Shown piece after piece: positions 8,112 to 55,753 of a stretch of DNA of 55,753 nucleotides. Every line of letters starts with the position of its first letter. The stretch's first letter is position 1. The stretch comes from a virus (taxonomy: Duplodnaviria; Caudoviricetes). Below the pieces are notes generated by a model. It saw only the letters and a program-made list of their open reading frames with translations. It had not been told where the DNA came from and made no database searches. The stretch covers positions 1 through 55,753 of IMG/VR virus record IMGVR_UViG_3300022934_000025. One strand, written 5' to 3'. Both the position numbers and the translations under genes were made by a program.

Positions 8112-8127
8112 AGCATTGAATTAATCC

Positions 8128-33303: not shown

Positions 33304-33381
33304 ATCTATCTCCTGTCTTGGGTTATGTCAGTCGCAACATGCAACTGTCAGGGATAGGATCAGGATACATTAGAAACAAAT

Positions 33382-43778: not shown

Positions 43779-44507
43779 CTAATGATCCGCAATAAAGTAA
43801 CCATAAGAGTCACGAGGGAAATAAAGGTCCATGCCCTTCTCCCCACTCTCAAACCTGCGTTCATTTGCTGGTCGGTTCATAATTGCTTCTAATTGCTGGA
43901 ATATCTTTGCGTCAACCATTTTCGCTAACTGTGCAGGTGTTGCATTAATCCCAGCTTGTTTAAATATACTAACGCCCACTGCGTTATTACGCTTATCCAT
44001 AGCACGATGTAAGCGATTTGAGAAACCTATATCTTCTCCAAGGTTCCCAACAGTCATCGCGGTCTCTGGTCCGTAGTCCGCGGCTACTAAAGCAGTACCC
44101 AAGGCATGTCCACGGGCATCCGCTAGTTCTTGAGGCGTAGGCATGTCCTGTCTAGGTCTGCCAAAACGATTCTCCCCTTCAATGGGGTCTTGAACCAACG
44201 GATAACCGTACTCGCTTGAAAGCGTTTCGAAAAAGGTGTCACCTTCCGGATAGTATGTTTCGCGGGCCGCGGAGCCCGGATTGCCAGACGCTCTTATCTC
44301 TGATTGTTTATCAGCGTCGAACCTAGCTCCCTCCGGCGGATCGGCAAACGGCGTGTATTGTTCTGCAAAAAATGCTGCTACACCGCGTTCGTCAAAATCT
44401 TGCTCTTGAGCAGGGCTTGTAGTATCTTGTAAAACTACAGTAGCGCCCCCGTCCTCAAAGTAGGACACGAATCCGCCCGCTCCAAGATTTACCGCAGGAC
44501 TATTCAT
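43779..44507 (-). CDS. DUF6973/SAA-like helical domain protein
   Basis: DARGHALG...MDKRNNAVG motif pair. Confidence 0.6.
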   Translation of the reverse strand: MNSPAVNLGAGGFVSYFEDGGATVVLQDTTSPAQEQDFDERGVAAFFAEQYTPFADPPEGARFDADKQSEIRASGNPGSAARETYYPEGDTFFETLSSEYGYPLVQDPIEGENRFGRPRQDMPTPQELADARGHALGTALVAADYGPETAMTVGNLGEDIGFSNRLHRAMDKRNNAVGVSIFKQAGINATPAQLAKMVDAKIFQQLEAIMNRPANERRFESGEKGMDLYFPRDSYGYFIADH

Positions 44508-44530
44508 TAGGCCGCCTTTCCATAAAAAAG

Positions 44531-45994
44531 TTAATAATACGCTTTCACTTTAACATGGTTTTCGTCATCTTCCCAGTCATCAGTTGGTAGCTGTACAAAA
44601 TTACCCTGCCTATATCGCATAAGTGCTTGCGTCATACTATCAACTAAGTCGTCATGCTCACCATTAGGAAAAGCCGCCACTTCTTCAATTAACTCGTCTG
44701 AAAAAGTTTCGTCGGGGGCCCAAACCATCCCTGCTTCAAACAATGGCGAGACACTATGTACTCGACTCACCTTATCGTTACCTCGACTCGGTGTAAAGTT
44801 AACAACGGGTATGCCCATGTTCCGTAATTCGTGCGTCAATGGCATACCGCTTGCTTTAGCCTCCACGATTACCGTGTCAGGCTCCCAAAACTTATAATTC
44901 TCAAGCGCAACTTGTTTTAACTCAGGGAAATCCCAGCGCCCTTTTTTGCTGTCAAGCAAAATCAAATTAGGACCCGATCCACCCTCGTTAGGATAAAATA
45001 CGCCCCACGTCGTTATCGCAGAATAGTCCGACGTTTCTCTTTTACTAAAAGCCGTATCGTAGCTCTGAATCACATATTCTAGCTGGGGGACCCTATCGCG
45101 ATCCCAACAGCGCCACCACTCGCGCTTAATAATCGCGTTCTCTTCACCCGTAGGATTTTGTTGATACTGCGCGTTCCACTTGGACGGAGGAATAGATGCG
45201 CGGACCGCGGTCAAATCGTCAAGAGACCAAAATTCTGGCCAGCACGGAGTCCCATCTTCAAAAATAGCGGGCAACTCCACAACTTCCCATTGATCGGCAA
45301 GCGGGTCTTTGGCCATCGCTTTCAATAATTGACCCGTCATGTCCTTCTCAGACCAACGTGTTTGAACCAAAACGATGCTGCCACCGGGCTGCAAACGCTG
45401 ACGAGGACCACCCGTGTACCAATCCCAAGCATCATCAAACCCAGAACTCGACATAGCCGTCTGCTCCGAGTGCGGGTCGTCAATGATTACCAAGTCACCT
45501 CCACGACCAGCCAAGTTACTGCCAACGCCAACAGCGTAATACATACCACCTTTGTTCGTGTCCCAACGACCAGACGCCTTACTATCCGCAGCAAGTTTCA
45601 CCTCCGGAAATATCTCTTTGAAATCATCACTCTCAATCAGGTTCTTGGTCTTCCTACCAAAATTCACAGCAAGTTCTGTCGTGTGCGTCGCCTGAATGAT
45701 CTTCTTGTTCGGCATACGGCCCATGAACCACGCAGGGAACAGATAGGACGCAAATTCGGACTTCGTGTGACGCGGTGCCATATTAATTATGAGCCGCTTC
45801 AATTCGCCCGTGGCTACCCGTTCAAGCTTTTCTGCAATGATCCGGTGATGACGGCCCGCGATGAACTCTGGCCAAACAGTTTTCACGAAAGTTAGAAAAT
45901 CATTTTGGCACTTTTCGTTCTTTTCAAGCTGCGCAAGCCGAAGCTCAAGCTTCAGTTTTTTCTCTTCTAGCAATGTATTTTGCGCTGCACTCAT
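44531..45994 (-). CDS. terL: Terminase large subunit
   Basis: APRHTKS (Walker A variant), IIDDP, YQQNP, SYDTAF, HDDLVDS. Confidence 0.95.
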   Translation of the reverse strand: MSAAQNTLLEEKKLKLELRLAQLEKNEKCQNDFLTFVKTVWPEFIAGRHHRIIAEKLERVATGELKRLIINMAPRHTKSEFASYLFPAWFMGRMPNKKIIQATHTTELAVNFGRKTKNLIESDDFKEIFPEVKLAADSKASGRWDTNKGGMYYAVGVGSNLAGRGGDLVIIDDPHSEQTAMSSSGFDDAWDWYTGGPRQRLQPGGSIVLVQTRWSEKDMTGQLLKAMAKDPLADQWEVVELPAIFEDGTPCWPEFWSLDDLTAVRASIPPSKWNAQYQQNPTGEENAIIKREWWRCWDRDRVPQLEYVIQSYDTAFSKRETSDYSAITTWGVFYPNEGGSGPNLILLDSKKGRWDFPELKQVALENYKFWEPDTVIVEAKASGMPLTHELRNMGIPVVNFTPSRGNDKVSRVHSVSPLFEAGMVWAPDETFSDELIEEVAAFPNGEHDDLVDSMTQALMRYRQGNFVQLPTDDWEDDENHVKVKAYY

Positions 45995-46031
45995 AGGGGT
46001 CCCTAGCTAATTTTTCACACGCAGTTTTCAA

Positions 46032-46047
46032 TGTTCCACGTGGAACA
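46032..46047. promoter_or_regulatory. parS: parS-consensus palindrome 1 of tandem pair
   Basis: TGTTCCACGTGGAACA. Confidence 0.85.
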
Positions 46048-46055
46048 TTTCACGT

Positions 46056-46071
46056 TGTTTCACGTGAAACA
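46056..46071. promoter_or_regulatory. parS: parS-consensus palindrome 2 of tandem pair
   Basis: TGTTTCACGTGAAACA, exact canonical consensus. Confidence 0.87.
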
Positions 46072-46079
46072 TAGCACCA

Positions 46080-46108
46080 ATTATATGCGATTTTAAGCAC
46101 AAATATAA
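46080..46108 (-). promoter_or_regulatory. Putative promoter of terL/late operon
   Basis: Perfect TATAAT (46085-46080) preceded by ATCGCA box; poor -35. Confidence 0.5.
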
Positions 46109-46179
46109 GACAGTTAATTCTGGTTCGAAATAACTGGTGATTATTTGCGAAAAACATGGCTCAAGCCCCCGCTTCGTAA

Positions 46180-46530
46180 ACACGGGGCCGTGCGCGGTGG
46201 ATCGCGGTTTTTGGCTCCCGCTCCGTGCCATTTGACCCGATACGCTGGGGCCCCTGCCGACGGTTCGCGGCGCTTGGACCATGACCCGCGGCGCTTGGTC
46301 CAGCGGCCATGGCCGCGGATAACTGGCAGCGGCTGGGGTGCATCGTCCGCGGTTTAATTTTCACGGGCTGGGGTTCGGGGTTCGGGGATCGCGCAGCGCG
46401 GCCCGCTGCCGACGGCCTGCCGCCCGCTAACTTTTGCCAACTGGGCACGGCCTGCGGCCATGGGATCGCGGCCCGTAGGTTTTGGGAAGGGAGCGCGGGG
46501 CGGGGCCCGCCTTGTTTAACTGGGAAACAC
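46180..46530. repeat. GC-rich non-coding tract with recurrent CGCGG units
   Basis: Multiple CGCGG; tandem CGCGGCGCTTGG[A/T]CCA; no credible ORF. Confidence 0.55.
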
Positions 46531-46537
46531 TAGGCAC

Positions 46538-46565
46538 AAAAAAAGGCCCGCACGGGGCGGGCCTT
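46538..46565 (-). terminator. Terminator at end of early region
   Basis: AAGGCCCGC stem plus T-run. Confidence 0.85.
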
Positions 46566-46583
46566 CGGTTTGCTGGGGACGGT

Positions 46584-46985
46584 TTAGACGTTGATCGACA
46601 AATCCAGTTCGATGTTCGAATAGTCGACTTCAACGGATATATCCCCGTCGCGGATCATATCTTTGACGGTTTCGCGGATTTTGTCGTCGGTCGCGTCGTC
46701 GGTCTCGTCTTCGCGATCTGCTAGCGTTCGGTCGATATGCTGCCCGATGCGGTCGCGCATCAAATCAAAAAGAACATCCGCCAACTGCTGGCGCTGTTCG
46801 GCGGCGGCTTGTATCTCCGCGCTCATTTTCTGGATGTTCAGTTCCAATCGCTCCGCGTATTCCTGCAAGTTTTTATGATCCAACGCGGCGGCTTTCAAAT
46901 CCGATCCGGTCGCGTCGCGTCCGTCTTGGATATGATCGGCGGCTAATTGGTCCAGATATTCGACGTTCGTTTTAAGTTCAATCAT
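46584..46985 (-). CDS. Early hypothetical coiled-coil protein
   Basis: 133 aa; own promoter, GGAG RBS and terminator. Confidence 0.78.
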   Translation of the reverse strand: MIELKTNVEYLDQLAADHIQDGRDATGSDLKAAALDHKNLQEYAERLELNIQKMSAEIQAAAEQRQQLADVLFDLMRDRIGQHIDRTLADREDETDDATDDKIRETVKDMIRDGDISVEVDYSNIELDLSINV

Positions 46986-47038
46986 GGTTCAGTTTCTCCG
47001 TTGTTAAAGTTGCGACGGCTTGCCCGCCGTCGTATGCG

Positions 47039-47068
47039 ATTATATGCGCTAACTTTTCAAAAAGTAAA
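47039..47068 (-). promoter_or_regulatory. Early promoter
   Basis: TTTACT-18-TATAAT; near-duplicate of 47581-47610. Confidence 0.75.
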
Positions 47069-47073
47069 CCCGC

Positions 47074-47099
47074 AAAAAAAAGGCCGCCCGAAGGCGGCC
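47074..47099 (-). terminator. Terminator
   Basis: GGCCGCC-TTCG-GGCGGCC-T8. Confidence 0.9.
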
Positions 47100-47118
47100 C
47101 GATGCGGCGCGGTTGCGC

Positions 47119-47532
47119 CTAGTCAAATCTGGCGATTTTGGTTTGACGGGTTGCGCGGTCGCGTATGGCGGTAATCCCGTATTCATATACGAAACACTCG
47201 AAACCCTCAAAGATGAAACGCGCCAGCGGTGCCAGTGCTGGATCGTCGTCGTGTTCGCTTTGGTATGTCCCGTTGTGATCGTCAACGGTCCCGCTGAATG
47301 GATAACAAAAGCCGCCAAATTGATAAGCGTCATCCATGCCCGCCGCGATATTGTCCAGCGTCAACGGGTCCGCCGTCATGCAAGCTTGGCAGAAAAAGTC
47401 GGGAATGATCCCGCAAGCTTCCGCCAATTGTGCAGGCGTTGCCCCGCCTAGCTGTTTATCCTGCGCAGGATTGAAAACCCGATCCAGTAATAAGTCGGAC
47501 GGGCGCACATTTAAAGTTCTAACGTTTTCCAT
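47119..47532 (-). CDS. Early hypothetical protein
   Basis: 137 aa; VYEYGITAI...ARFD; cassette with promoter and terminator. Confidence 0.78.
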   Translation of the reverse strand: MENVRTLNVRPSDLLLDRVFNPAQDKQLGGATPAQLAEACGIIPDFFCQACMTADPLTLDNIAAGMDDAYQFGGFCYPFSGTVDDHNGTYQSEHDDDPALAPLARFIFEGFECFVYEYGITAIRDRATRQTKIARFD

Positions 47533-47580
47533 GGTTTTTTACTCCGTAGTAATGCGGCGCTTTATTGCCCCGCGTATGTG

Positions 47581-47610
47581 ATTATATGCGATAACTTTTG
47601 AAAAAGTAAA
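47581..47610 (-). promoter_or_regulatory. Early promoter
   Basis: TTTACT-18-TATAAT. Confidence 0.75.
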
Positions 47611-47618
47611 GTAGAAAC

Positions 47619-47645
47619 AAAAAGGCCCGCACATTGGCGGGCCTT
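47619..47645 (-). terminator. Terminator
   Basis: AAGGCCCGC stem plus T-run; near-identical to 46538-46565. Confidence 0.82.
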
Positions 47646-47666
47646 CGGTTTGCGTTGTCGCTGGTT

Positions 47667-48857
47667 TTATGCGGCGACTTTATCCAGTAACGCGCCCGCC
47701 TTTCGTTCGATTTCAATGCGGGCATCTTGGTGCGGTATGTCCCGCGCAATTGCGGTAATAGCCTGCGCCGCGTCCCAAACTGTTTCAACGGGTCGGCCTT
47801 CTTCTTTTAAATGCCTAGCGTTCGCGGCCTTGGCCATGCGGCCAGATAATCCCGCCCGCTTACTTAGGAAATCAAAACGGCTTTCATCATCGTGCGCAAT
47901 CTTGGCGGCCTTGGCAGCTTGGACGCCTTCAATAAATGTAGACGTTGCACCATGCGCGAAGCTTTCCAAAGCTGGCCGCGCTTCCATCGCGAAACGATCG
48001 GGCGCGAATTTGGTATGCCTAATCTTAATTTCTTGGAAGTTTTCCACGCCCCAAAGATTTCGATTCATACAAACCCCGCGCAGATACATCGCGGCGATGC
48101 CTGCGGTTTTGCTGCCCGTTTCACTGTTCCATGCGTAAAAGCCGCGGAACATCAAATCGGGTTCGCCGTTCGGCAGCTTACCGACTTCGATAGGGTTGCG
48201 GTCGTCAACTAGGAAAACGAAAACGTCGCGGTCGCTGGCGAATAGCGTGGTCGTTTCCATTGTTACTGGCACGTCGGGATCGTAAACGGCTAAACCGTCG
48301 CGGCTTCCCGTCATCATGCCCGGCACTTTCCAACGTCCGCCGCTGGCGTCAACTAGGTTTTTCACTGGTTCCAAAATTTCCCAGTCAAAAATTCGCCCGT
48401 AGTCTGGACCCGTTGCGGCGCGTAAATCCCCGCCGTCGGTTTGGCTACCGTATACCTTGACCAGTTCCCGCCCGCGGTTATAGCGCAAACCCCATTGAAT
48501 ACAGTCCGCCGCCAATGGTGCAGGCAAGTCGCGCAGGTAACCAGCGGGTGCGCCAGATAGCTGGGACAATTGGCCAAAACTCCAATTGGTCGGGGTGTTC
48601 ACGTGGTCGCGGTAATTGTCGTCTTGGTATTCAACGCGCAAATCCCCGCGGCTGGGGTTGCTTTCATCCAGTTCGCCAATGATCTGGATTTTGTGAGTAT
48701 CAACGGTGCGGCTTGTCATCCGCTGGGCGTCAATCTTTTTTGTGGCCAGCATATCATCCAGCGTCAAAAACTTTTGATCGTCGGGACGGCTGAACCATTG
48801 TGATGAAACCGCGCTATTTCCAATGCCATGCGCGAAGGCGTTAGTTGTATAAGTCAT
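47667..48857 (-). CDS. DUF932-family protein
   Basis: WSFGQL, RAATGPDYGRI, NSETG, YLRGVCMNR, KIRH. Confidence 0.8.
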   Translation of the reverse strand: MTYTTNAFAHGIGNSAVSSQWFSRPDDQKFLTLDDMLATKKIDAQRMTSRTVDTHKIQIIGELDESNPSRGDLRVEYQDDNYRDHVNTPTNWSFGQLSQLSGAPAGYLRDLPAPLAADCIQWGLRYNRGRELVKVYGSQTDGGDLRAATGPDYGRIFDWEILEPVKNLVDASGGRWKVPGMMTGSRDGLAVYDPDVPVTMETTTLFASDRDVFVFLVDDRNPIEVGKLPNGEPDLMFRGFYAWNSETGSKTAGIAAMYLRGVCMNRNLWGVENFQEIKIRHTKFAPDRFAMEARPALESFAHGATSTFIEGVQAAKAAKIAHDDESRFDFLSKRAGLSGRMAKAANARHLKEEGRPVETVWDAAQAITAIARDIPHQDARIEIERKAGALLDKVAA

Positions 48858-48910
48858 ATTTTTTACTCCGTAGTTAAAAGTTAAGGGCCGATCATTTCTG
48901 ACCAGCCCCT

Positions 48911-48941
48911 ATAATATCCCATATTATTGTATATGGTGCAA
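48911..48941 (-). promoter_or_regulatory. Putative early promoter
   Basis: TTGCAC...TATTAT (long spacer) with ATCCCATA box. Confidence 0.5.
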
Positions 48942-48958
48942 GCTAATTTTTTAGAAAG

Positions 48959-49672
48959 TTATTCCAGCCCAATGTCGCCCGCAACATGATGCCGAATGAT
49001 CGAACGCGGCGGGAGTGATTTCGCAAACCGCAAAAGCTTTTCCCCGTCCGTTTCATCCGGTTGCGATTGGTTTGAAGTATCGCGCCAATGCAATGCAACG
49101 TTTCCGCCGTCGGCATAACATCCGCCGCGCACGTCGGGATCGGCGGCTTTTTTCTTGCTGGCACCATGCGCGGTAAATCCGATCACATAATCCCTATCAA
49201 GTCGGGCGCACAATGGCAGGCCGTTGCCACAATCGCGGCAGCTAAACCCGTCACGATATTCGGCGGGACATCTAACGACCCGAACACCCCAGCCAGCGGG
49301 TTGGGTTTTTTTACCTTCCCAGCTATCTGGCGAAACGACAGTAACCGACGGGACGCCATTAATAATTGACGCCGCTGCGGCGGCTTTGTTTTCCGTCGAG
49401 AAATTTATGACGGTTTTACCTTCGGCCAATTTACGGTCCCAGCCATATTGGCGCGGATCGAAATGCGAGTAAGTAAACGAGACGCCTTTACGCGGAACCG
49501 CGTCCAATAATGCGTCCAAATAATCTGGATCAATTTTTTGCGATCCCTTCCCGCTGCAATTCATTTTGCAGGCGGCTGGGCAGGTCGCATATTTTTCACC
49601 ATTGCCAGCGCGATAGGTTACCGCGATGCCTTTGGTTTTTTCTGCCCGACTCATTTCTACTGTTTTAAGCAT
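48959..49672 (-). CDS. Cys-rich Gp88/DUF7227-like protein
   Basis: TCPAAC, CPAE...SCRDCG...LC, GFTAHG, GGCYA, RHHVAGD. Confidence 0.65.
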   Translation of the reverse strand: MLKTVEMSRAEKTKGIAVTYRAGNGEKYATCPAACKMNCSGKGSQKIDPDYLDALLDAVPRKGVSFTYSHFDPRQYGWDRKLAEGKTVINFSTENKAAAAASIINGVPSVTVVSPDSWEGKKTQPAGWGVRVVRCPAEYRDGFSCRDCGNGLPLCARLDRDYVIGFTAHGASKKKAADPDVRGGCYADGGNVALHWRDTSNQSQPDETDGEKLLRFAKSLPPRSIIRHHVAGDIGLE

Positions 49673-49916
49673 GGAACATTTCCCCCAATTTGCAGCCCTG
49701 CATTAATCGGGAACGAATAAAGCAAAAATCATATATGTGTTTATTCCAGTAAAAATCGCCGTTGTGAAACATGCGGATCAATTCCCATTCACCCGTTTTA
49801 CTATCCAAAAATTGGATACCATCCCCGCACGGTTCGATCACGTCGGCCTTAATCCAACATTGTGGGACGGTCATGGTGTCACTTATCGCTTCGCGTAGTT
49901 GAATGTATATCGTCAT
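49665..49916 (-). CDS. Early hypothetical protein
   Basis: 83 aa, GGAGG RBS, own promoter. Confidence 0.68.
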   Translation of the reverse strand: MTIYIQLREAISDTMTVPQCWIKADVIEPCGDGIQFLDSKTGEWELIRMFHNGDFYWNKHIYDFCFIRSRLMQGCKLGEMFHA

Positions 49917-49951
49917 CGGTTTGCCCTCCGTAGTTATAAGATATATCGCAT

Positions 49952-49988
49952 ACTATACGACATAAAAAAGCCCGCGGTCAAGCGGGCT
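49952..49988 (-). terminator. Terminator whose loop is the -35 box of the next promoter
   Basis: AGCCCGC-TTGACC-GCGGGCT-TTTTT then TATAGT 18 nt after TTGACC. Confidence 0.75.
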
Positions 49989-50002
49989 AAATTTTTATTT
50001 TT

Positions 50003-50092
50003 TTATCGTCGCCTTCGCTTCGGCTTTGGCCGTAAATCGTCGGCGGCATCTTCCCCAAACAAAAGTTTATAAAGCCATTCGATCAAACCCAT
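50003..50092 (-). CDS. 29-aa amphipathic/basic peptide (not in ORF track)
   Basis: MGLIEWLYKLLFGEDAADDLRPKPKRRRR; GGAGG RBS; TAATG coupling. Confidence 0.6.
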   Translation of the reverse strand: MGLIEWLYKLLFGEDAADDLRPKPKRRRR

Positions 50093-50262
50093 TACACGGC
50101 CTCCACGGTTACGTCGTCATGATAATCGCCGTCATAACTGTTAATAAAATAATCTTCGTCGCCTGCCTTCAATTTTCTTAAAGCATCGTCTTCATCAACA
50201 GCATCAACGTGGTGAACTTCCACGACCGTATAGCTGAACATCACTTTATATTTCTGCGCCAT
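50092..50262 (-). CDS. 56-aa acidic early protein (not in ORF track)
   Basis: MAQKYKVMFSYTVVEVHHVDAVDEDDALRKLKAGDEDYFINSYDGDYHDDVTVEAV; AACTACGGAGG leader. Confidence 0.72.
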   Translation of the reverse strand: MAQKYKVMFSYTVVEVHHVDAVDEDDALRKLKAGDEDYFINSYDGDYHDDVTVEAV

Positions 50263-50290
50263 CGTTTTACCTCCGTAGTTAAATTAATGA

Positions 50291-50770
50291 CTATGGGATT
50301 GTATGCGATGTTGTGGGACTAATCAAGCCAAAAACTTTTTGCCAGTCAAGTGCACCAGCTGCGTGATAATGCGCGGGGACCTTCAACCCTTCCAGCTTCA
50401 GATCAACAGCGTCCGCTCCGCGGTATAAAAAAATTTGCTCAGGTTGATTTTTGGTTTTGTGTTTTTTAACCAAGACCCAAACGCTGGCGTGACCATGATT
50501 GGTTAGCCAAGCCACTTGGTGAGGCCGTAGGTCCACCGCATTACCTGCGGTCGCTTTCAGTTCAATAAAATGAAACTGACCAAACTCGTCACACAAAACA
50601 ACATCGGGCACACCGGGCATCGCCCACGTTTCAAGCCTAGTCGCTTTCAGATTCCTGCCAGTCTTCTCCATCCCCGTTTTCATCTGCCTCCAAAAGTCGG
50701 CTTCTCGCTTTGTCGCGGTTCTGGGGATTGCTCTCTCCTTCGGGAGTAACGTCGATAGTGATCGGGGCAT
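50291..50770 (-). CDS. VRR-NUC / PD-(D/E)xK nuclease (Holliday junction resolvase-like)
   Basis: PGVPD, FIELK, LRPHQVAW; start uncertain. Confidence 0.82.
   Translation of the reverse strand: MPRSLSTLLPKERAIPRTATKREADFWRQMKTGMEKTGRNLKATRLETWAMPGVPDVVLCDEFGQFHFIELKATAGNAVDLRPHQVAWLTNHGHASVWVLVKKHKTKNQPEQIFLYRGADAVDLKLEGLKVPAHYHAAGALDWQKVFGLISPTTSHTIP
50298..50326 (-). promoter_or_regulatory. Early promoter inside the 3' end of the nuclease gene
   Basis: TTGATT-17-TACAAT with three phased ATC[GC]CATA-like boxes. Confidence 0.72.
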
Positions 50771-51254
50771 AACTTTGTTTAATCTCCTTGAGCGCCCTCA
50801 ACACTTCATCCTTGCTCATACTGTCAATGCTGCCAGTGCGGATTTCGCTCTTGTTTACATAAATGTCACCTTGCGCTTGCCCGCGCCTGTATTCTGCCTG
50901 AACGGCTGCGCTGTATGCGCCGTTGTTTAATGCCATGTCGCGGATGACCTGAAGGTCCCGCAAATGGCGTTGGTAGTTCACACCAAACTTTTCATCCAGT
51001 TCTGCACGATAAGCTTGGATCGCTGCCACAACATGAGGGCTGATGTTTGGGTTGGTTAGTTCATACGCTCTGGTGTGAGCAGACCCTGCGGGATAGCCAG
51101 CATTGATTGCTGCCTCTCGCATTGTGATCTGACCATCCTTCGATACCAGTTCTTTAACAAACAGTTCTTGCTTTCGCGTTAGCTGCTGGGCTTTGGTTGC
51201 CTTGGGTCGTCCTACCCTTTTCTTTGGGGCAGGAGCTACTGATTTACTTGGCAT
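50637..51254 (-). CDS. terS: Terminase small subunit
   Basis: LTRKQELFVKEL...REAAINAGYPAGSAHTRAYEL HTH typical of TerS. Confidence 0.8.
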   Translation of the reverse strand: MPSKSVAPAPKKRVGRPKATKAQQLTRKQELFVKELVSKDGQITMREAAINAGYPAGSAHTRAYELTNPNISPHVVAAIQAYRAELDEKFGVNYQRHLRDLQVIRDMALNNGAYSAAVQAEYRRGQAQGDIYVNKSEIRTGSIDSMSKDEVLRALKEIKQSYAPITIDVTPEGESNPQNRDKARSRLLEADENGDGEDWQESESD

Positions 51255-51307
51255 TTAATTCTCCAGTTATTTGGCGATAGTTTGCCATAAAACTAACCCG
51301 CTTTGAA

Positions 51308-51533
51308 TATATAGACAAGAAATCAAAAAAAAATAAAAAACGATCTGACCTCCCTATACGCAATCTTGCCCTTTCTGGTTACACAAACTCGGATACGGTT
51401 ACTTTTTTGTTTTTCACTTATGTAACTTAAAATCTCTTTATATAACAAGAGCTTGCTTGCTTCGGTTACACGGTTACACCGGTTACGGCTATTTTACCGA
51501 AAAAATTTATTTTTTATTTTTACTGTCTATATA
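51308..51533. repeat. AT-rich element: TATATAGACA inverted repeats enclosing GGTTAC iterons; candidate origin or packaging site
   Basis: IR 51308-17/51524-33 with A/T tracts; GGTTAC at 51377, 51397, 51464, 51472, 51481; inverted TGTAAC at 51421. Confidence 0.6.
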
Positions 51534-51671
51534 AGTAAACGCCGTTTACTTGTACCGTGCGCCGCGGCCCCTGATTCCTGTATACTGCCCCTCGGCCCGT
51601 CCCTGTTCACTCCTAGTGGGGGAGTTATGACCCCTGCATCAAACGGCGGGGGCGGGCCACCTCCCTCGCAT

Positions 51672-51700
51672 AAAAAAACCCCCGATCCGAAGACCGGGGG
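51672..51700 (-). terminator. Terminator
   Basis: CCCCCGGTC-TTCG-GATCGGGGG-T7. Confidence 0.85.
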
Positions 51701-51710
51701 CCGTGTTTAA

Positions 51711-52025
51711 CTACTCAGTGTAGACTTCATACCATTCGTCTTCCCCGTCTTTCGCTTTGTGCGTTATGACATGTGGATCGAATGGAAACCCGTAGCTATG
51801 TCCGACGCGGCCTTGGATGGAGTCACGCATTGCGTGACACTCCGCAGCTAAAAGGTCGGTATAACCATATCGGCAAAGATTGAAACCGATGTAAGCCCCA
51901 CCGTCAAAGTAGTCTTGCTTACGTTTCGATTCGAGTCCGTCGGGAAACTTCTCTTTGATGAATCTTTCGATGTCTTCAAGATTGTTAATGACGACCTTGC
52001 CGTCCTTGAGTTCAAAGTCACTCAT
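51711..52025 (-). CDS. Early hypothetical protein (104 aa)
   Basis: Start MSDFELK after AACTACGGAGG leader. Confidence 0.75.
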   Translation of the reverse strand: MSDFELKDGKVVINNLEDIERFIKEKFPDGLESKRKQDYFDGGAYIGFNLCRYGYTDLLAAECHAMRDSIQGRVGHSYGFPFDPHVITHKAKDGEDEWYEVYTE

Positions 52026-52107
52026 GGTGAACCTCCGTAGTTTTTCAATTGTTAAAGAACGTGGGGCTTGCCCGCCCCGCCAACTGGAACTCCCAGTTGG
52101 TAAAAAT

Positions 52108-52136
52108 AGTTTACCACGGGTATGCGATAATGTCAA
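52108..52136 (-). promoter_or_regulatory. Strong sigma70 promoter
   Basis: TTGACA-17-TAAACT with extended TG. Confidence 0.85.
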
Positions 52137-52194
52137 GTCCAATAATGAAGGGAAAGTGGAGAGGTGGTGGAAATCCACTTAATTTTTTAGAAAG

Positions 52195-52500
52195 TTATAT
52201 CGTCGCGGATGGGTGAACGGCGAAGTAGTCCATTCGGTCGTCCCATTGGAAGGTATGTTCTTGCCACTTGGCTGCTTCTTCAGCAAGGCGGTCTTCGATG
52301 GCGGGTGATGAGGTCCACGCCTTGAGGTTCATCTTCAGACTCCACTTAAACTCGTCGGCTTTCTCTTTCCAGTAGTTGGCTTCGTGCGTTCGGCCTTCCC
52401 AGTCGTCTTCCTCTGCCCAAAAGGAGCAGAGGTCGAAGCAAGCCTGATCGCTCAGTGAGCCGTCTCTCATGCGCAGGATCGCGGGCCGTTTACCGTTCAT
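52195..52500 (-). CDS. Hypothetical Trp-rich protein
   Basis: 101 aa, ATGA coupled. Confidence 0.68.
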   Translation of the reverse strand: MNGKRPAILRMRDGSLSDQACFDLCSFWAEEDDWEGRTHEANYWKEKADEFKWSLKMNLKAWTSSPAIEDRLAEEAAKWQEHTFQWDDRMDYFAVHPSATI

Positions 52501-52715
52501 AGCCTGTCCTCGTATTCTTCAACGGATGGGACGGCACCTTCTTCGTCGTCCACTTCTGCATGGATCAAGGCAATGACGTAGGTCGGGTTGATCTGGACGA
52601 TCTTGCCGTTGTCGAGCTTTAGCTCAATCATGTCTTTGCCCCACTTCCATGATGTGACGCTGTAGTTAAGTTGCGTCCCGACGGACGGGTGCATATCAAT
52701 GGTTAGTATTTTCAT
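52497..52715 (-). CDS. Hypothetical protein (72 aa)
   Basis: GAGGA RBS before MKILT. Confidence 0.68.
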   Translation of the reverse strand: MKILTIDMHPSVGTQLNYSVTSWKWGKDMIELKLDNGKIVQINPTYVIALIHAEVDDEEGAVPSVEEYEDRL

Positions 52716-53016
52716 CACGTTCCTCCTCTGCGATGTAGACACGCTTCATTGGTTTAGTGCGAAAGAACCCTTTGTAGTCTGGGTACTCGTGCATGAACAA
52801 CCGAGCGTAAAGCGCAATGAAGTCGTTAGAGATTTTGTATTCGTTACCGGTGGTTACGATCATCGTTTCCCACCGAATCCTGTTGACGATAAGCCATGCT
52901 GAAAGTCTACGGTGCCCTTTCTGGATAGCTTGAAAGGTGAACTTTTTAAATAGCTCATAGAACTCTGGGTTCTCTTTGTGCCACGCCCACCATTTATCTT
53001 TGAGATCGTCTGTCAT
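52696..53016 (-). CDS. Conserved phage protein
   Basis: WHKENP...NRIRWE...YKISNDFIALYARLF...FFRT motif. Confidence 0.75.
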   Translation of the reverse strand: MTDDLKDKWWAWHKENPEFYELFKKFTFQAIQKGHRRLSAWLIVNRIRWETMIVTTGNEYKISNDFIALYARLFMHEYPDYKGFFRTKPMKRVYIAEEERDENTNH

Positions 53017-53351
53017 CCAAATAACGCGAACGCGATAGCTGCAAGGAATCCGCCAACAGCGGCTTGCAGGATGAACTTATGCTTGACGTACCATGGCTCG
53101 TGGTCCGCGTCCCAATGCGCGTCAGTCTCTTCGTAGGTGACATCGACTGCGGTTCGTTCGGCGTTGTTTTTAAAGCACCAAGCTAGGATAGCGCCGCGTT
53201 CCCAACGGTTAACCATCTTTGGCCCGCGGGTCGCGGTGGTTGGAACTTTGACGGGGGATGGAAATTCACCCACCTTTACCTTTCGGTAAACGGTGGGCTT
53301 GCTGACCTGCGCGAGGTCGCACACTTCTTCGATGGTAATCAAATCTTTCAT
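53013..53351 (-). CDS. AlpA-like HTH DNA-binding protein with C-terminal hydrophobic helix
   Basis: LITIEEVCDLAQVSKPTVYRKVKVGEFPSPVK...NRW. Confidence 0.82.
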   Translation of the reverse strand: MKDLITIEEVCDLAQVSKPTVYRKVKVGEFPSPVKVPTTATRGPKMVNRWERGAILAWCFKNNAERTAVDVTYEETDAHWDADHEPWYVKHKFILQAAVGGFLAAIAFALFG

Positions 53352-53379
53352 AACGTTCTCCATGTAGACTTACATAGAG

Positions 53380-53409
53380 ATTGTATGGGATTTTATATAG
53401 AAAAGTCAA
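53380..53409 (-). promoter_or_regulatory. Early promoter
   Basis: TTGACT-18-TACAAT with ATCCCATA box. Confidence 0.75.
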
Positions 53410-53576
53410 CCCTGAAGGATACGTTGCCAGCACTTCTCAAGCTCCGCACTGCGTTGCTTGTCTTCTTCGCTGCCGCTTTCTTCGAGTTGTTTTTGGAAGT
53501 CGGTGACGGCTTTGTTCACCTGATTGACTGCGTAAGGCCAAGGTATTTCTGATACGCGTAGGTTTAGTTCGTCCAT
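53406..53576 (-). CDS. 56-aa hypothetical protein (not in ORF track)
   Basis: MDELNLRVSEIPWPYAV...LEKCWQRILQG; AGGAGG RBS. Confidence 0.7.
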   Translation of the reverse strand: MDELNLRVSEIPWPYAVNQVNKAVTDFQKQLEESGSEEDKQRSAELEKCWQRILQG

Positions 53577-53593
53577 GGTTATCCTCCTAAGAT

Positions 53594-53663
53594 AAAAAAG
53601 CCCCAGCCGGGGGCAACCGTACTGGGGCTGGTTTTAACTACGGAGAACATGTTCACCATGTTC
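53594..53663 (-). ncRNA. Predicted 70-nt trans-acting small RNA antisense to early-gene RBS leaders
   Basis: Own promoter, 5' hairpin GAACAUG/CAUGUUC, seed CUCCGUAGUUAAAA, terminator AGCCCCAG/CUGGGGCU-U5. Confidence 0.7.
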
Positions 53664-53669
53664 AAGCGT

Positions 53670-53699
53670 AGTATAACCCCACCAATATGGGATATGCAA
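53670..53699 (-). promoter_or_regulatory. Promoter of predicted sRNA
   Basis: TTGCAT-18-TATACT, ATCCCATA in spacer. Confidence 0.75.
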
Positions 53700-53702
53700 C
53701 AC

Positions 53703-53906
53703 TTAATCGCATATCTCATTCAAGTTTTCTGGGTATTCCCCAGCTTCTAAGGGATCGACAATAGACAATTGGCAGGTCTTACACATACGAAAGAGATGGG
53801 TGTCCGATTTACCGGTCACCGTAAGGGGCTGCTCACACTTGGGGCACTTATTTTCCACCAGTCTTTTGTGGAACTGTCCCGTTTCCCCCGCTGCTTCCAT
53901 CATGTG
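53703..53906 (-). CDS. Zinc-ribbon protein
   Basis: CPKC...CKTC; GGAG RBS before ATG 53906. Confidence 0.68.
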   Translation of the reverse strand, partial: HMMEAAGETGQFHKRLVENKCPKCEQPLTVTGKSDTHLFRMCKTCQLSIVDPLEAGEYPENLNEICD

Positions 53907-54039
53907 CTGTCTCCATGTACCACTCAAAGACCAGACGTAATTGTCCGCCGATGGTTCGGCCTTCCTTTTTCGAAAGGGCCTTTATCTCTTCATACACTTC
54001 CCGCGGTACGAGACTGCTTTTCCAACGATCTGTATCCAT
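53848..54039 (-). CDS. Ribbon-helix-helix (Arc-like) DNA-binding protein
   Basis: KSSLVPREVYEEIKALSKKEGRTIGGQLRLV. Confidence 0.72.
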   Translation of the reverse strand: MDTDRWKSSLVPREVYEEIKALSKKEGRTIGGQLRLVFEWYMETAHDGSSGGNGTVPQKTGGK

Positions 54040-54071
54040 TAATCTATCTCCGATGCCCCCGGATGTCTACG

Positions 54072-54100
54072 ATAATATAGGAGATTATACAAGAATGCAA
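54072..54100 (-). promoter_or_regulatory. Promoter directly after polA terminator
   Basis: TTGCAT-17-TATTAT. Confidence 0.72.
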
Positions 54101-54101
54101 G

Positions 54102-54123
54102 AAAAACCCCGCCGAAGCGGGGT
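54102..54123 (-). terminator. Terminator after polA
   Basis: ACCCCGC-TTCG-GCGGGGT-TTTT. Confidence 0.88.
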
Positions 54124-54166
54124 AGTTGAGAGGCCACAGGCGTGGGCCACGAGCAGCATGGAGTTG

Positions 54167-55753
54167 CTATTTAGCTTCGCCCCATGAAGGTCCGATCTCG
54201 ACATCGCACTTACTGGGTACTTCAAGGGGGACAGCATCCTCCATGACCTTAGCGATTTCATGCGCTTCGTCAACACTTTTAACGGACATGGCTATTTCAT
54301 CGTGGATTTGAATCATGGGCAGCTTGCCCATCTTGTAGAGGTCCACCATCGCTTTTTTCGTCATATCCGCGGCAGATGCTTGGATTAAACGATTGAGCGC
54401 CTTATAGGTGTAGGCTCGTTTGAGACGGGTCGTGGGCCCATATTCGTCAACCGCTTCCCGGTAAGGCAGCGCCTTGTTCATGGCAAAGGTATCGGGCTCC
54501 CACAGATCGAAGCGACACTTACGGCCAAGCAGCGAGTGCAGCGAACCGCCCGACGATTTCTCGTTCAGTCGGTTCATGACGCCCGTCATCAGTCCTTTCA
54601 CAAACGGTACGCGGTCATGGTATTGCTTGGTTAGGCTTTTTGCTTCTTCGACCGACAGGTCCAGTTGCTCAGACAGTTTGTTCACACCCATGCCATACAT
54701 CATGCCAAGGTTAATTGTCTTAGCTTGCTTCCGCGGAATGTTAGCCATCTCCGCAACCATCGTATGGAAGTCAGTGTCCGGATCATCGTTGTATGCGTTG
54801 ACAAACTCCTTGGCTCCCTCCAGTTGAACGCCTCGCATTTTTCCGTATACATGCGCATAATGGACCAAGATGCGCGGTTCCTGTTGCGAGAAGTCAATGG
54901 CCGCCCACTGTTCACCTTCCTCTGGTAGGAACAACGAACGAATCATTGGTCCCAGTTCAGGGTCGCGGGCCGGGATTTGCTGTAGGTTAGGATTAGACAT
55001 GGAGATACGGCCCGATACGGTGCCTCCATCGTCAGAGCGGATTTGATTGATATGGGAGTGTATTCGACCATCAGCGTGGCAGTGCTTCATGATTGTATTG
55101 ATGAAGGTGCCGGATGTCTTGTTCAGGTTCCTAGCTTGGGTGACGAGTTGCGCGAGTGGATGCTCATGCTCTTGGAGGAAGAGTTTGGTGAACGACGGTG
55201 CGCCCTTTTCAGTGCGTGGATAGTTGACTCCGACTTTATCGAACGCTTTAGCGAGAGACTGTGCAGCCCAGATTTCGACATCCGTGCCGCTGATGCGCTT
55301 AATCTCCTTGAGGACTTCCCGTTCTCGCTTGAGCAAACCATCCCGCGTTCGCTCGACCTTATCCGTATCTACCCGGACACCCCGCATGGTCATATCGACC
55401 AGACATGGGAGGAGATCAAGTTCGAGATTGGCGATAGGCCACAAGCCTTCTTTGCCAAGTTGAACGGAGAAGTAATTCCAGAGTTCGAGGGTAAGTTCAG
55501 CATCACCCTCCGCATACGGTCCAACGTACATGGCGGGCATCTTCCACATCTCTGCTTTCGGATCGACTCCGAACTCCCGCGCCGCTTCCACTAGACCTTT
55601 CTCCGACTTAACTTTTCCCAAGTGGTCGTAAGCTAGTGAGTTCAGGCTGTAGCTAAATCTGTTTTCATCAAGCAGTGATGCGATGACCATGGTGTCTATG
55701 ATGCGGCCTTTGACATCGAAGCCCATGGCTTTGATCCAGCCCAAGTCATACTG
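54167..55753 (-). CDS. polA: DNA polymerase family A, 3' part (polymerase domain)
   Basis: SGRISMSNPNLQQIP, DFSQQEPR (motif A), RKQAKTINLGMMYG (B), IHDE (C). Confidence 0.96.
   Translation of the reverse strand, partial: QYDLGWIKAMGFDVKGRIIDTMVIASLLDENRFSYSLNSLAYDHLGKVKSEKGLVEAAREFGVDPKAEMWKMPAMYVGPYAEGDAELTLELWNYFSVQLGKEGLWPIANLELDLLPCLVDMTMRGVRVDTDKVERTRDGLLKREREVLKEIKRISGTDVEIWAAQSLAKAFDKVGVNYPRTEKGAPSFTKLFLQEHEHPLAQLVTQARNLNKTSGTFINTIMKHCHADGRIHSHINQIRSDDGGTVSGRISMSNPNLQQIPARDPELGPMIRSLFLPEEGEQWAAIDFSQQEPRILVHYAHVYGKMRGVQLEGAKEFVNAYNDDPDTDFHTMVAEMANIPRKQAKTINLGMMYGMGVNKLSEQLDLSVEEAKSLTKQYHDRVPFVKGLMTGVMNRLNEKSSGGSLHSLLGRKCRFDLWEPDTFAMNKALPYREAVDEYGPTTRLKRAYTYKALNRLIQASAADMTKKAMVDLYKMGKLPMIQIHDEIAMSVKSVDEAHEIAKVMEDAVPLEVPSKCDVEIGPSWGEAK
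55569..55753. repeat. Terminal overlap repeat (copy 2)
   Basis: Matches 1-185 with 3 substitutions. Confidence 0.97.

What the first reader, a model, noticed from the sequence alone, without database searches (positions are those of the whole stretch)
47210..49920. Extreme GAG/CTC avoidance confined to the early region
Seen (manual count): no GAG or CTC in 47545-48579 (about 1 kb) and about 9 in 47221-49920, two of them in RBSs. Roughly 30 per kb are expected at random, and I counted more than 30 in 54601-55560. Known: first-entering DNA is exposed to restriction before anti-restriction proteins are made. Inference: this segment enters first and has purged a GAG-containing motif read by host R-M/BREX-like systems, implying that the genes inside encode counter-defence.
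Basis: partly seen in the sequence, partly recalled or inferred. Interest (0 to 1): 0.72.

Follow-up and report, generated by a model that had tools for sequence, protein, structure and literature searches.

The report
Restriction-site-poor gene island in a phage
A 4.3-kb block of small genes between the two terminase genes of an uncultured marine phage has been scrubbed of the words GAG/CTC, CCGG and GTAC while the rest of the genome keeps them, which is best explained if this block is exposed to host DNA-cutting defences before the rest is protected.

Summary
The full depleted interval is about 46.0-50.4 kb, between terS and terL of a circularly assembled 55.7-kb podovirus genome.

Codon bias does not explain it. 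There are 23 sites against 66 from dinucleotide shuffles. The CDSs hold 14 against 37 from synonymous permutation. All frames, both strands and noncoding DNA are depleted.

The same island also lacks CCGG (3 against 31 expected) and GTAC (0). The whole genome lacks 27 of 64 palindromic hexamers and all CCWGG.

The island is a conserved core module, not an import. In 52 orthologous DUF932 genes GAG/CTC numbers 7-22, against 2 here. A second, distant lineage has independently lost CCGG and GAG/CTC in the same island.

The island genes have their own sigma-70-like promoters, terminators and a shared leader.

Best reading: region-limited avoidance of host nuclease sites, as in the first-step-transfer region of T5. 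Entry order, the system that reads GAG and any counter-defence role of the genes remain untested. No homology supports that role.

The parts
46000..50290 (.). Site-poor island between terS/nuclease and terL: GAG/CTC 23 (66 expected), CCGG 3 (30.6 expected), GTAC 0, CTGA/TCAG 6 (23.4 expected). It makes up 7.7% of the genome.
47207..49925 (.).
50092..50262 (-). g56, a 56-aa acidic protein (pI 4.3) with no homolog in the 80 related loci; RBS GGAG at 50271.
49665..49916 (-). g83, an 83-aa protein with no homolog in the related loci. It is preceded by a sigma-70-like promoter (49981-49952) and the leader TAACTACGGAG.
48959..49672 (-). DUF7227 protein (237 aa, 8 Cys), conserved in the family at 59-96% identity. 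Related to GP88 clusters; function unknown.
47667..48857 (-). DUF932 protein (396 aa), the conserved core gene of the island. It has 2 GAG/CTC against 7-22 in 52 distinct orthologs.
47119..47532 (-). g137, a 137-aa acidic protein (pI 4.3) conserved in the family. It has its own promoter (47610-47581) and terminator (47100-47081). The AF2 model has pLDDT 92 and no PDB fold match.
46584..46985 (-). g133, a 133-aa very acidic protein (33 D+E, pI 4.3), variable among relatives. It has its own promoter (47068-47039) and terminator (46566-46542).
45995..46541 (-). Conserved GC-rich, repeat-bearing noncoding element at the island's terL border. At its downstream end it carries a promoter-like site and two CACGTG-centred palindromes (about 46031-46072) just upstream of terL.
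50637..51254 (-). Terminase small subunit (Terminase_2); the upstream boundary. GAG/CTC density is normal here.
50291..50770 (-). 159-aa nuclease-like ORF (PHROG endonuclease / Holliday-junction-resolvase-like hits) that overlaps the end of terS. The depletion starts at its 3' end.
44531..45994 (-). Terminase large subunit; the downstream boundary. GAG/CTC density is normal here.

Best explanation
The 4.3-kb island between terS and terL is a block of independently transcribed, host-RNAP-type (probably early) genes. Its DNA is under selection to carry no target for host DNA-cutting defences. Hexamer palindromes and CCWGG have been purged from the whole genome. Words too short to purge everywhere (GAG/CTC, CCGG, GTAC, CTGA) have been purged only here.

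That pattern makes sense only if this block must survive uncut for a time while the rest of the genome is either not yet in the cell or is protected afterwards by what the block encodes. This is the logic shown experimentally for the first-step-transfer region of T5.

Shown here: the region-limited, DNA-level, lineage-specific and convergent purge, and the island's own promoters, terminators and leader.

Inferred: that host nucleases are the agent, that the island is exposed first, that its acidic small proteins, DUF932 or DUF7227 provide the later protection, and that GAG is read as a short half-site shared by several specificities or by a frequent-cutting enzyme.
For: 1. The depletion exceeds dinucleotide, codon-permutation and codon-usage nulls. 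It covers all frames, both strands and noncoding DNA.
2. The same interval lacks CCGG (3 against 30.6; the rest of the genome has 181 against 209) and contains the genome's largest GTAC gap, 45416-51552. Only island-overlapping intervals, of 112 tested, show k-mers at or below 0.4 of expectation.
3. The genome as a whole shows extreme restriction-type avoidance. 27 of 64 palindromic hexamers are absent, against 29 of 4032 non-palindromic words. CCWGG is 0 against 86, CAGCAG 6 against 41, and GAGCAC, RGATCY and GWGCWC are absent.
4. The island is not an import. It is syntenic and conserved in the related loci. Four-fold-site divergence from the nearest long relative L007 is uniform: portal 0.41, terL 0.36, DUF932 0.39, DUF7227 0.40, terS 0.46.
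5. The purge is lineage-specific. In DUF932, GAG/CTC is the only outlier trinucleotide against 52 distinct orthologs: 2 against a mean of 14.3, range 7-22. The window gained 0 GAG/CTC in DUF932 but 7-15 in each of terL and portal.
6. It is convergent. L062 and L063, in another well-supported clade, have CCGG 1 of 20 expected and GAG/CTC 16-21 of about 40 expected in the island, with normal flanks.
7. Other lineages show other island-limited losses: TGCA in L022, L023 and L032; CTGA in L007; AGCC in DSL-LC04.
8. The retained GAGs include 5 RBS GGAG sites, as expected if only functionally needed copies survive.
9. The island has three sigma-70-like promoters, five strong terminators and a leader (TAACTACGGAG) shared by 5 island genes, among 7 genome matches with at most 1 mismatch.
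10. No methyltransferase was found in the 40 proteins scanned with Pfam.
11. Precedent: T5 resists Type I, II and III R-M, CRISPR and Ssp systems provided no site lies in the FST region (PMC10644984, passages read).
Against: - Entry polarity and physical termini are unknown. The assembly is circular, the island lies in the middle of a one-directional gene array, and the public runs gave contigs only.
- No bacterial system known to me reads GAG alone, and the loss holds in all eight flanking contexts (ratios 0.00-0.55).
- Island proteins match no known anti-restriction family. g137 has no solved-fold match (best Z 3.8). DUF932 shows only weak OB-fold likeness (Z 5.3-5.8).
- Part of the signal is family-wide and may have other causes. 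In 15 relatives the island has about half the flank density of GAG and CTC. It is CpG-rich. It is poor in coding-strand AG words in a strand-asymmetric way that points to codon- or mRNA-level constraints.
- Strong island-limited losses in relatives are few, and one comparable loss lies in a flank (GGCC in L024). That the island is a 'hot spot' is therefore not statistically established.
- Small genes at 51.3-54.1 kb, two with the same leader, are not depleted.
Confidence: 0.55

Rival explanations
1. The island's odd word usage is a by-product of selection on expression: codon choice, avoidance of internal Shine-Dalgarno-like GGAG/GAGG/AGGA, or avoidance of cleavage of early mRNAs by a sequence-specific RNase or toxin.
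For: Island codon usage differs globally: GAA 0.90 against 0.64, CGC 0.47 against 0.20, NCT codons 0.06-0.12 against 0.22-0.31. In 15 relatives, coding-strand AG words fall more than their complements; for example AGT 0.55 against ACT 1.10, and AAG 0.76 against CTT 1.07. AGG/CCT is the most depleted trinucleotide in 22 of 49 related islands.
Against: Coding-strand CTC is as depleted as GAG (0.16-0.24). Permuting synonymous codons with the island's own usage still predicts 37 against 14. Noncoding DNA is depleted too. The palindromes CCGG and GTAC are lost in the same interval. Orthologs encoding 84-95% identical proteins keep 7-22 sites. Neighbouring small genes with the same leader are not depleted.
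Confidence: 0.1
2. The agent is a host defence other than classical restriction. Candidates are CRISPR interference (a PAM set that includes GAG, AGG and AAG), a phosphorothioate- or other modification-dependent system with a 3-4-nt word, or a frequent-cutting nicking enzyme. The positional logic, an exposed first segment, stays the same.
For: GAG, AGG and AAG are all below the rest of the genome in the island (0.24, 0.54 and 0.66). T5 escapes CRISPR and Ssp systems as well, provided targets are outside the FST (PMC10644984, passages read). Natural enzymes with 3-nt words exist: Nt.CviPII (CCD) and Nt.CviQII (R^AG) (PMC3017599, passages read). That the Type I-E PAM set is AAG/AGG/ATG/GAG is recalled, not checked.
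Against: AAG, the canonical PAM in that recalled set, is the least depleted, and CTT is not depleted in relatives. About 117 AAG/CTT remain in the island, so PAM thinning would protect little. CCGG and GTAC are typical Type II words. The 3-nt nickases cited are from algal viruses, not bacteria.
Confidence: 0.15
3. The words are avoided because of a phage function tied to this place. Near the packaging start they might mimic a terminase or regulator site, or they might be targets of a phage-encoded nuclease such as the 159-aa nuclease-like ORF next to terS.
For: The island lies directly between terS, the nuclease-like ORF and terL. It abuts a conserved, repeat-bearing 0.55-kb noncoding element that could be a pac/cos or regulatory site. 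Right-hand ends of related metagenome contigs pile up there: 25 of 72 fall within +750 to +1750 nt of the DUF932 stop.
Against: TerS, the nuclease-like ORF and terL are 72-96% identical across relatives. Yet CCGG loss occurs in only 2 lineages among the 53 distinct DUF932 genes of the tree, and the strength of GAG loss varies from o/e 0.28 to about 0.9. Several unrelated words are lost together. The rest of the genome carries all of them at normal density, so a phage nuclease with these targets would cut its own DNA.
Confidence: 0.08
4. The island is a horizontally acquired or recombined module that simply carries the word usage of its donor.
For: GC, CpG (rho 1.49 against 1.04) and AG/CT (rho 0.56 against 0.96) differ from the rest of the genome. 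A similar GC/CpG shift is seen at the same place in DSL-LC04 and 023Pt_psg01.
Against: The module is syntenic and conserved across the related loci, with terL and portal as conserved as DUF932. Synonymous divergence from L007 is the same inside and outside the island. The extra GAG/CTC and CCGG loss is specific to the window's terminal branch and to L062/L063. The window shows no gains in the island but normal gains outside it.
Confidence: 0.05

Closest known systems
First-step-transfer (pre-early) region of phage T5 and other Tequintaviruses
   Same: A segment of about 8% of the genome (here 7.7%) with host-RNAP-type genes of unknown function. Freedom from recognition sites in this segment decides whether R-M, CRISPR or Ssp systems can act, while sites elsewhere are tolerated (PMC10644984, passages read). 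A long repeat-rich noncoding region lies at its border; here this is 45995-46541.
   Different: Here nothing shows two-step entry, a terminal position or a terminal repeat. The island lies between terS and terL of a podovirus related to the HTVC023P type. No homolog of T5 pre-early genes turned up among the Pfam or PHROG hits. The purge reaches a 3-nt word, which to my knowledge has not been described for T5.
Leading early region of T7 with Ocr (gene 0.3)
   Same: A podovirus with large internal proteins. The first genes are read by host RNA polymerase. A small, very acidic protein at the leading end blocks restriction before later DNA arrives (recalled knowledge). g133, g137 and g56 have pI 4.3.
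   Different: No sequence or fold match to Ocr was found, but a missing fold match does not exclude it. No phage RNA polymerase gene was found, and the direction of entry is unknown.
Genome-wide restriction-site avoidance in phages (palindrome avoidance)
   Same: The whole genome lacks 27 of 64 hexamer palindromes and all CCWGG. The island extends this to CCGG and GTAC.
   Different: Classical avoidance is genome-wide and concerns complete 4-8-bp sites. Here the shortest words are purged only in one 4.3-kb block, and one of them (GAG/CTC) is not a complete known site.
Enzymes that read GAG or shorter words: Type IB EcoAI (GAG N7 GTCA), nickases Nt.CviQII (R^AG) and Nt.CviPII (CCD)
   Same: They show that GAG can be a specificity half-site (EcoA site as listed in PMC10644984) and that 3-nt recognition exists in nature (PMC3017599, passages read).
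   Different: No such enzyme is linked to this phage's unknown host. The nickases are from algal viruses. AAG/CTT is not symmetrically depleted, so R^AG as such does not fit.
Anti-defence islands in plasmid or ICE leading regions, which often carry DUF932 genes (recalled, not checked here)
   Same: First-entering DNA that carries small acidic proteins and a DUF932 gene. A DUF932 gene on an integrated plasmid is mentioned in bioRxiv 10.1101/2025.06.20.660599 (passages read).
   Different: This is a lytic-type phage genome, not a conjugative element. No ArdA, KlcA, PsiB or SSB family hit was found in the island.

Membership tests
T5-type first-step-transfer region | Recognition sites absent from the segment but present in the rest of the genome | tested here: met
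   GAG/CTC 5.4/kb against 21/kb; CCGG 3 against 30.6 expected, with the rest at 181 against 209; GTAC 0.
T5-type first-step-transfer region | The segment lies at the genome end that enters first (within a terminal repeat in T5) | not testable with these tools
   The assembly is circular. Runs are kept as contigs only, and no molecule ends were reported.
T5-type first-step-transfer region | Transfer halts at a cis-acting stop signal in a repeat-rich noncoding region | tested here: inconclusive
   A conserved, repeat-bearing 0.55-kb noncoding element borders the island. Its function is unknown.
T5-type first-step-transfer region | Genes are read by host RNA polymerase before all others | tested here: inconclusive
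   Consensus promoters and terminators were found, but promoter-like sites in 44000-55753 are not above shuffles overall (13 against 10.9). Positional counterparts in HTVC027P are early or early-to-middle (PMC12753301, section 12). Its Table S3 could not be seen.
Classical restriction-site avoidance | Depletion beyond composition- and codon-preserving nulls | tested here: met
Classical restriction-site avoidance | The avoided word is a complete site of a known R-M type | tested here: inconclusive
   CCGG and GTAC are typical 4-bp palindromes. GAG/CTC is only a 3-nt word, depleted in all eight contexts. REBASE was not available.
Classical restriction-site avoidance | The avoided words match the host's R-M repertoire | not testable with these tools
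   The host is unknown. The phage is found in salt-marsh, marine and sponge metagenomes.
Known anti-restriction proteins (Ocr, ArdA, KlcA/ArdB and the like) | Sequence or fold similarity to a known member | tested here: inconclusive
   No Pfam, PHROG-function or PADLOC hit for g133, g137, g83 or g56. g137 model best Z 3.8. Only acidity fits. g133, g83 and g56 were not folded.
DUF932 (PF06067) | Pfam hit above the gathering score | tested here: met
   28 bits against a cutoff of 23, E 2.4e-6. phrog_1362 E 2e-45. 2274 representative clusters at E<=1e-3.
DUF7227 (PF23872) | Pfam hit above the gathering score | tested here: met
   111.5 bits against a cutoff of 27. Atlas neighbours are DUF7227 and GP88 clusters.

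The most novel reading that the evidence does not exclude
A large uncultured family of marine and salt-marsh podoviruses, relatives of the HTVC023P-type pelagiphages, delivers its DNA in two stages as T5 does. A pre-early segment of about 4 kb (7.7% of the genome) lies next to terL, is bounded by a conserved repeat-rich noncoding stop or packaging element, and enters first. It carries new counter-defence genes (DUF932, DUF7227 and small acidic proteins of unmatched fold). In the window's lineage it is under attack by a host system that reads as little as the 3-nt word GAG/CTC. Region-limited loss of short words could then be used to find first-entering DNA, and the specificities of host defences, from sequence alone.
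Probability: 0.25. Interest if true: 0.8.

Novelty: new variant of a known kind. Interest (0 to 1): 0.62.

Why it matters
If the reading holds, a purely computational signature would mark which part of an uncultured phage's genome meets the host's nucleases first. That signature is short words missing from one block but not from the rest, varying between sister lineages. It would also point to the genes that disarm those nucleases. This gives a testable entry-order hypothesis for an abundant marine phage group that has no genetics. It flags DUF932, DUF7227 and three small acidic proteins as candidates for new anti-defence functions. It also raises the question of what host system selects against a 3-nt word.

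Tried and rejected
- Megablast of the island against GenBank phages found no match.
- Rfam and tRNA scans found nothing in the island; the only hit was Mu-gpT-DE at 33301-33353.
- Public runs: 24 holders, all kept as Logan contigs. Laying X1, X22, X23 and X24 gave short contig pieces over both the island and its flanks. It gave no molecule ends and no usable depth, so there is no information on termini, on a terminal repeat or on expression level.
- The positions where contigs end in the 80 loci cluster between g137 and terL: 25 of 72 right ends. This may reflect a variable or GC-rich region as well as a physical end, so I did not use it as evidence of a terminus.
- Fold searches: no match with E<=0.001 for g137 or DUF932 in Foldseek/PDB. 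In the VIA-align wide search the best Z was 3.8 for g137 and 6.1 for DUF932. Known anti-restriction folds were not listed, which does not exclude them.
- PDB sequence searches found nothing at E<0.7.
- The Atlas gave no usable hit for g137.
- PADLOC gave no hit for island proteins.
- An early idea that the words match Salmonella or E. coli systems was dropped once the relatives turned out to be marine phages.
- The idea of thymidine hypermodification, raised for some HTVC023P-type clades in PMC9599517, found no support. No such enzyme appeared among the 40 proteins scanned. Small ORFs were not scanned.
Full report
**What the window is.** The 55,753-bp window is a whole, circularly assembled phage genome. 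A family-A DNA polymerase gene runs across its ends. Nearly all genes lie on the minus strand: 58 of 66 ORFs in a crude greedy set. Pfam and PHROG hits give the following:
- a UvrD-type helicase, an AEP primase and Pam3 gp33/gp34-like proteins;
- one plus-strand SNF2 helicase;
- terS (50637-51254) and terL (44531-45994);
- a Mu-gpT-like capsid protein and two SU10-adaptor-like proteins;
- several proteins of 600-1266 aa without family.

This is a podovirus-type architecture. TerL is 55-63% identical to the terL of Pelagibacter phages HTVC027P and HTVC023P, phage 023Pt_psg01 and lake phage DSL-LC04. Near-identical DNA occurs in salt-marsh, marine, seawater and sponge metagenomes. The host is unknown.

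**The observation.**
- no GAG or CTC in 47545-48579;
- 9 in 47221-49920, two of them in RBSs;
- 34 in 54601-55560.

The genome mean is 21.0 per kb. The gap from 47542 to 48580 (1038 nt) is the longest in the genome. The best-fitting depleted interval is 46231-50410, with 20 sites in 4180 nt.

**Chance and codon bias.**
- Dinucleotide-preserving shuffles of 46000-50290 give 65.8 +/- 6.6 sites (minimum 45 of 1000) against 23 observed.
- GAG/CTC is the lowest of 32 symmetric trinucleotides at 0.35 of its first-order Markov expectation; the next is 0.71.
- In the six island CDSs all three frames of both GAG and CTC are depleted, at ratios 0.00-0.52 of the other genes.
- Permuting synonymous codons while keeping the island's own codon counts predicts 37.3 +/- 4.3 (minimum 26 of 2000) against 14 observed. 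Rest-of-genome codon usage predicts 70.7 +/- 7.4. The same test on terL+portal gives 96 against 103.3 +/- 5.3.
- Noncoding DNA has 7.9 per kb in the island and 19.9 per kb elsewhere.

The loss holds in all eight one-base contexts: AGAG 0 of 26.7 expected, GAGC 6 of 31.3, GAGG 4 of 21.7, TGAG 5 of 26.9. It is weakest for GGAG, at 13 of 23.7. Five of the 23 survivors are the GGAG of ribosome-binding sites.

**More than GAG.**
- The same interval has 3 CCGG against 30.6 expected from CCG, CGG and CG counts. The rest of the genome has 181 against 209.
- It has no GTAC. The largest GTAC gap of the genome, 6136 nt, runs from 45416 to 51552.
- CTGA/TCAG is 6 against 23.4.
- Several degenerate 5-mers are low relative to the rest of the genome: AGNCT 2 against 14.8, GANTC 2 against 9.9, CTNAG 1 against 7.2.
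- In a scan of 112 overlapping 4.3-kb intervals with local expectations, other regions show only mild trinucleotide deficits (o/e about 0.55-0.7). Deficits at or below 0.4 occur only over the island.
- The genome as a whole shows extreme restriction-type avoidance. 27 of 64 palindromic hexamers are absent and 36 have at most two copies, against 29 of 4032 non-palindromic words absent. CCWGG is 0 against 85.9, CAGCAG/CTGCTG 6 against 40.6 and GAGCAC/GTGCTC 0 against 18.9. All forms of RGATCY and nearly all of GWGCWC are missing.
- No DNA methyltransferase or base-modification enzyme was found in the 40 proteins scanned with Pfam. Small ORFs were not scanned.

**Anatomy of the island.** In reading order on the minus strand it holds:
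- g56 (50262-50092) and g83 (49916-49665);
- a DUF7227 protein (49672-48959);
- a DUF932 protein (48857-47667);
- g137 (47532-47119) and g133 (46985-46584);
- a 0.55-kb GC-rich noncoding stretch up to terL.

Sigma-70-like sites precede g83, g137 and g133, scoring 10 of 12, two with a perfect TATAAT. Strong intrinsic terminators follow DUF7227, DUF932, g137 and g133, and one precedes g83. Promoter-like sites in 44000-55753 are not more numerous than in shuffles overall (13 against 10.9), whereas terminator-like sites are (38 against 14.7). The leader TAACTACGGAG, with at most one mismatch, occurs 7 times in the genome. Five of these lie in front of island genes and two are at 52033 and 53635. 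g133, g137 and g56 are acidic, at pI 4.3.

**Relatives.** A DUF932-based scan of IMG/VR found 268 stretches, and the best 80 loci were kept at 84-95% protein identity. They share the order terS, nuclease, (variable small genes), DUF7227, DUF932, g137, (g133), terL, portal. TerL is 75-96% identical (85-96% in all but six loci) and portal 74-95%. g56 and g83 have no counterpart in them. The island is therefore a core module of a large family, not a recent insertion. Four-fold-site divergence between the window and the nearest long relative L007 is the same inside and outside the island: portal 0.41, terL 0.36, DUF932 0.39, DUF7227 0.40, terS 0.46.

**Two layers of signal.** The first layer is family-wide. 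In 15 relatives with long flanks, the island has about half the flank density of GAG (0.53) and CTC (0.43). It is CpG-rich. It is poor in coding-strand AG words, while the complementary CT words are much less affected (for example AGT 0.55 against ACT 1.10). That asymmetry points to codon- or mRNA-level causes for this part.

The second layer is lineage-specific.
- In the DUF932 gene the window has 2 GAG/CTC against 7-22 (mean 14.3) in 52 distinct orthologs. This is the only outlying trinucleotide (z = -3.7; all others lie within 2 SD).
- Its nearest relatives are intermediate, at 7-11.
- In three-taxon comparisons the window gained 0 GAG/CTC in DUF932. It gained 7-9 in terL and 11-15 in portal, as its sister did.
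- On a DUF932 tree the window sits alone on a terminal branch.
- L062 and L063 come from two other metagenomes and sit in a different clade with 99-100% support. They independently show CCGG at 1 of 20 expected and GAG/CTC at 16-21 of about 40 expected in the island, with normal flanks.
- Other lineages show other island-limited losses: TGCA 4 of 14-16 in L022, L023 and L032; CTGA 3 of 17.5 in L007; AGCC/GGCT 17 of 50 in DSL-LC04.
- Against this, one comparable loss lies in a flank (GGCC in L024), and 023Pt_psg01 lacks CATG throughout its fetched 17-kb stretch. The sample is too small to prove that the island is a hot spot.

**What it most likely is.** A strand-symmetric loss of several unrelated short words, which is frame-independent, region-limited, lineage-specific and convergent, sits in a genome already stripped of hexamer palindromes. 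This is best explained by selection against recognition by host DNA-targeting defences. Limiting the purge to 4.3 kb makes sense only if that block must stay intact during a time when the rest is either still outside the cell or is later shielded by the block's products. That is the logic established for T5. T5 resists Type I, II and III R-M, CRISPR and Ssp systems provided no site lies in its first-step-transfer region, which is also about 8% of its genome and is bordered by a repeat-rich noncoding region (PMC10644984, passages read).

Three further points fit this reading. The island is 7.7% of the genome. It is bordered on the terL side by a noncoding element conserved in the 14 sequences aligned (the window and 13 relatives), with repeated motifs. 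In HTVC027P three genes between terS (gp29) and terL (gp40), namely gp30, gp33 and gp34, are reported as early or early-to-middle, and that phage relies on host RNA polymerase (PMC12753301, section 12 read; for the map). These are resemblances, not proof.

**What is not shown.**
- Nothing here tells which DNA enters first. The runs that hold the phage are kept as contigs, and laying four of them gave no molecule ends.
- No known bacterial system reads GAG alone. The even loss across contexts suggests a short half-site shared by several specificities (EcoAI reads GAG N7 GTCA, as listed in PMC10644984), a frequent-cutting enzyme (3-nt nickases exist in algal viruses, PMC3017599), or several overlapping longer sites. 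This is inference.
- The island proteins give no homology support for counter-defence. There is no such Pfam, PHROG or PADLOC hit.
- The g137 model (pLDDT 92) has no solved-fold match, with best Z 3.8.
- The DUF932 model (pLDDT 94.8) resembles OB folds of RPA- and SSB-type proteins only weakly. That match is at residues 46-152, with Z 5.3-5.8, rmsd 3.0-3.7 and 87-93 residues aligned, below the level the tool calls meaningful.
- DUF7227 is related to GP88 clusters of unknown function.

**Rivals.** Four rivals were considered:
- Expression-level selection explains part of the family-wide layer. It does not explain the symmetric, out-of-frame, noncoding and palindromic losses.
- A defence other than classical restriction keeps the same positional logic and cannot be excluded.
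- A phage-internal cause tied to packaging fits the location. It does not fit the variation between lineages whose terminases are 87-96% identical.
- Import from a donor is contradicted by the uniform divergence inside and outside the island and by the window-specific lack of gains.

**Verdict.** I class the finding as a new variant of a known kind, namely region-limited restriction-site avoidance as in the T5 FST, here in an uncultured marine podovirus family and reaching a 3-nt word.

Noticed in passing
whole window: Extreme genome-wide avoidance. 27 of 64 palindromic hexamers are absent and 36 have at most 2 copies. CCWGG is 0 against 86 expected, CAGCAG/CTGCTG 6 against 41 and GAGCAC/GTGCTC 0 against 19. 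RGATCY and SAGCTS forms are nearly absent. Close relatives share much of this (L007 has 8 copies of the window-absent palindromes in 18 kb); distant ones do not (DSL-LC04 has 170 in 17 kb).
   Followed up: partly
window 45995-46541: A 0.55-kb GC-rich noncoding element upstream of terL, conserved across the 14 sequences aligned (window and 13 relatives). It has invariant blocks and repeated CAGTTA / GGTGAAAATTAA-like motifs. It could be a pac/cos site, an origin, an injection stop or a structured RNA. Rfam found nothing there.
   Followed up: partly
window 46031-46087: A promoter-like -10 box (TATAAT at 46085-46080) is followed by two CACGTG-centred palindromes (TTTCACGTGAAA and TTCCACGTGGAA) just upstream of terL. 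Their order is swapped in some relatives, and four of the 13 aligned relatives lack one of them. This is a likely operator for the late operon.
   Followed up: no
window 46996, 47542, 48866, 49926, 50271, 52033 (-) and 53635 (+): A shared translation leader, TAACTACGGAG, precedes five island genes and occurs at two sites in the neighbouring small-gene region. This suggests a common expression class.
   Followed up: partly
window 33301-33353 (-): Rfam Mu-gpT-DE RNA motif (68 bits) next to the capsid gene region.
   Followed up: no
window 1-518 and 54167-55753 (-): A family-A DNA polymerase gene is split by the window ends, so the record is a circularised assembly opened inside a gene.
   Followed up: yes
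window 50637-50770: The 159-aa nuclease-like ORF (50291-50770) overlaps the 3' end of terS by 134 nt in another frame. Its true start may lie further downstream.
   Followed up: no
L002 (DSL-LC04) 4001-9000; L007 8001-12000: Relatives show their own island-limited losses at the same place: AGCC/GGCT 17 of about 50 in DSL-LC04 and CTGA/TCAG 3 of 17.5 in L007.
   Followed up: partly
L001 (023Pt_psg01) 1-17377: CATG is completely absent from the whole fetched 17-kb stretch of this relative, against about 10 expected per 4 kb.
   Followed up: no
window 29053-29703 and 30059-30727 (-): Two paralogous SU10-adaptor-like proteins point to a podovirus neck of the SU10 (Kuravirus) kind.
   Followed up: no
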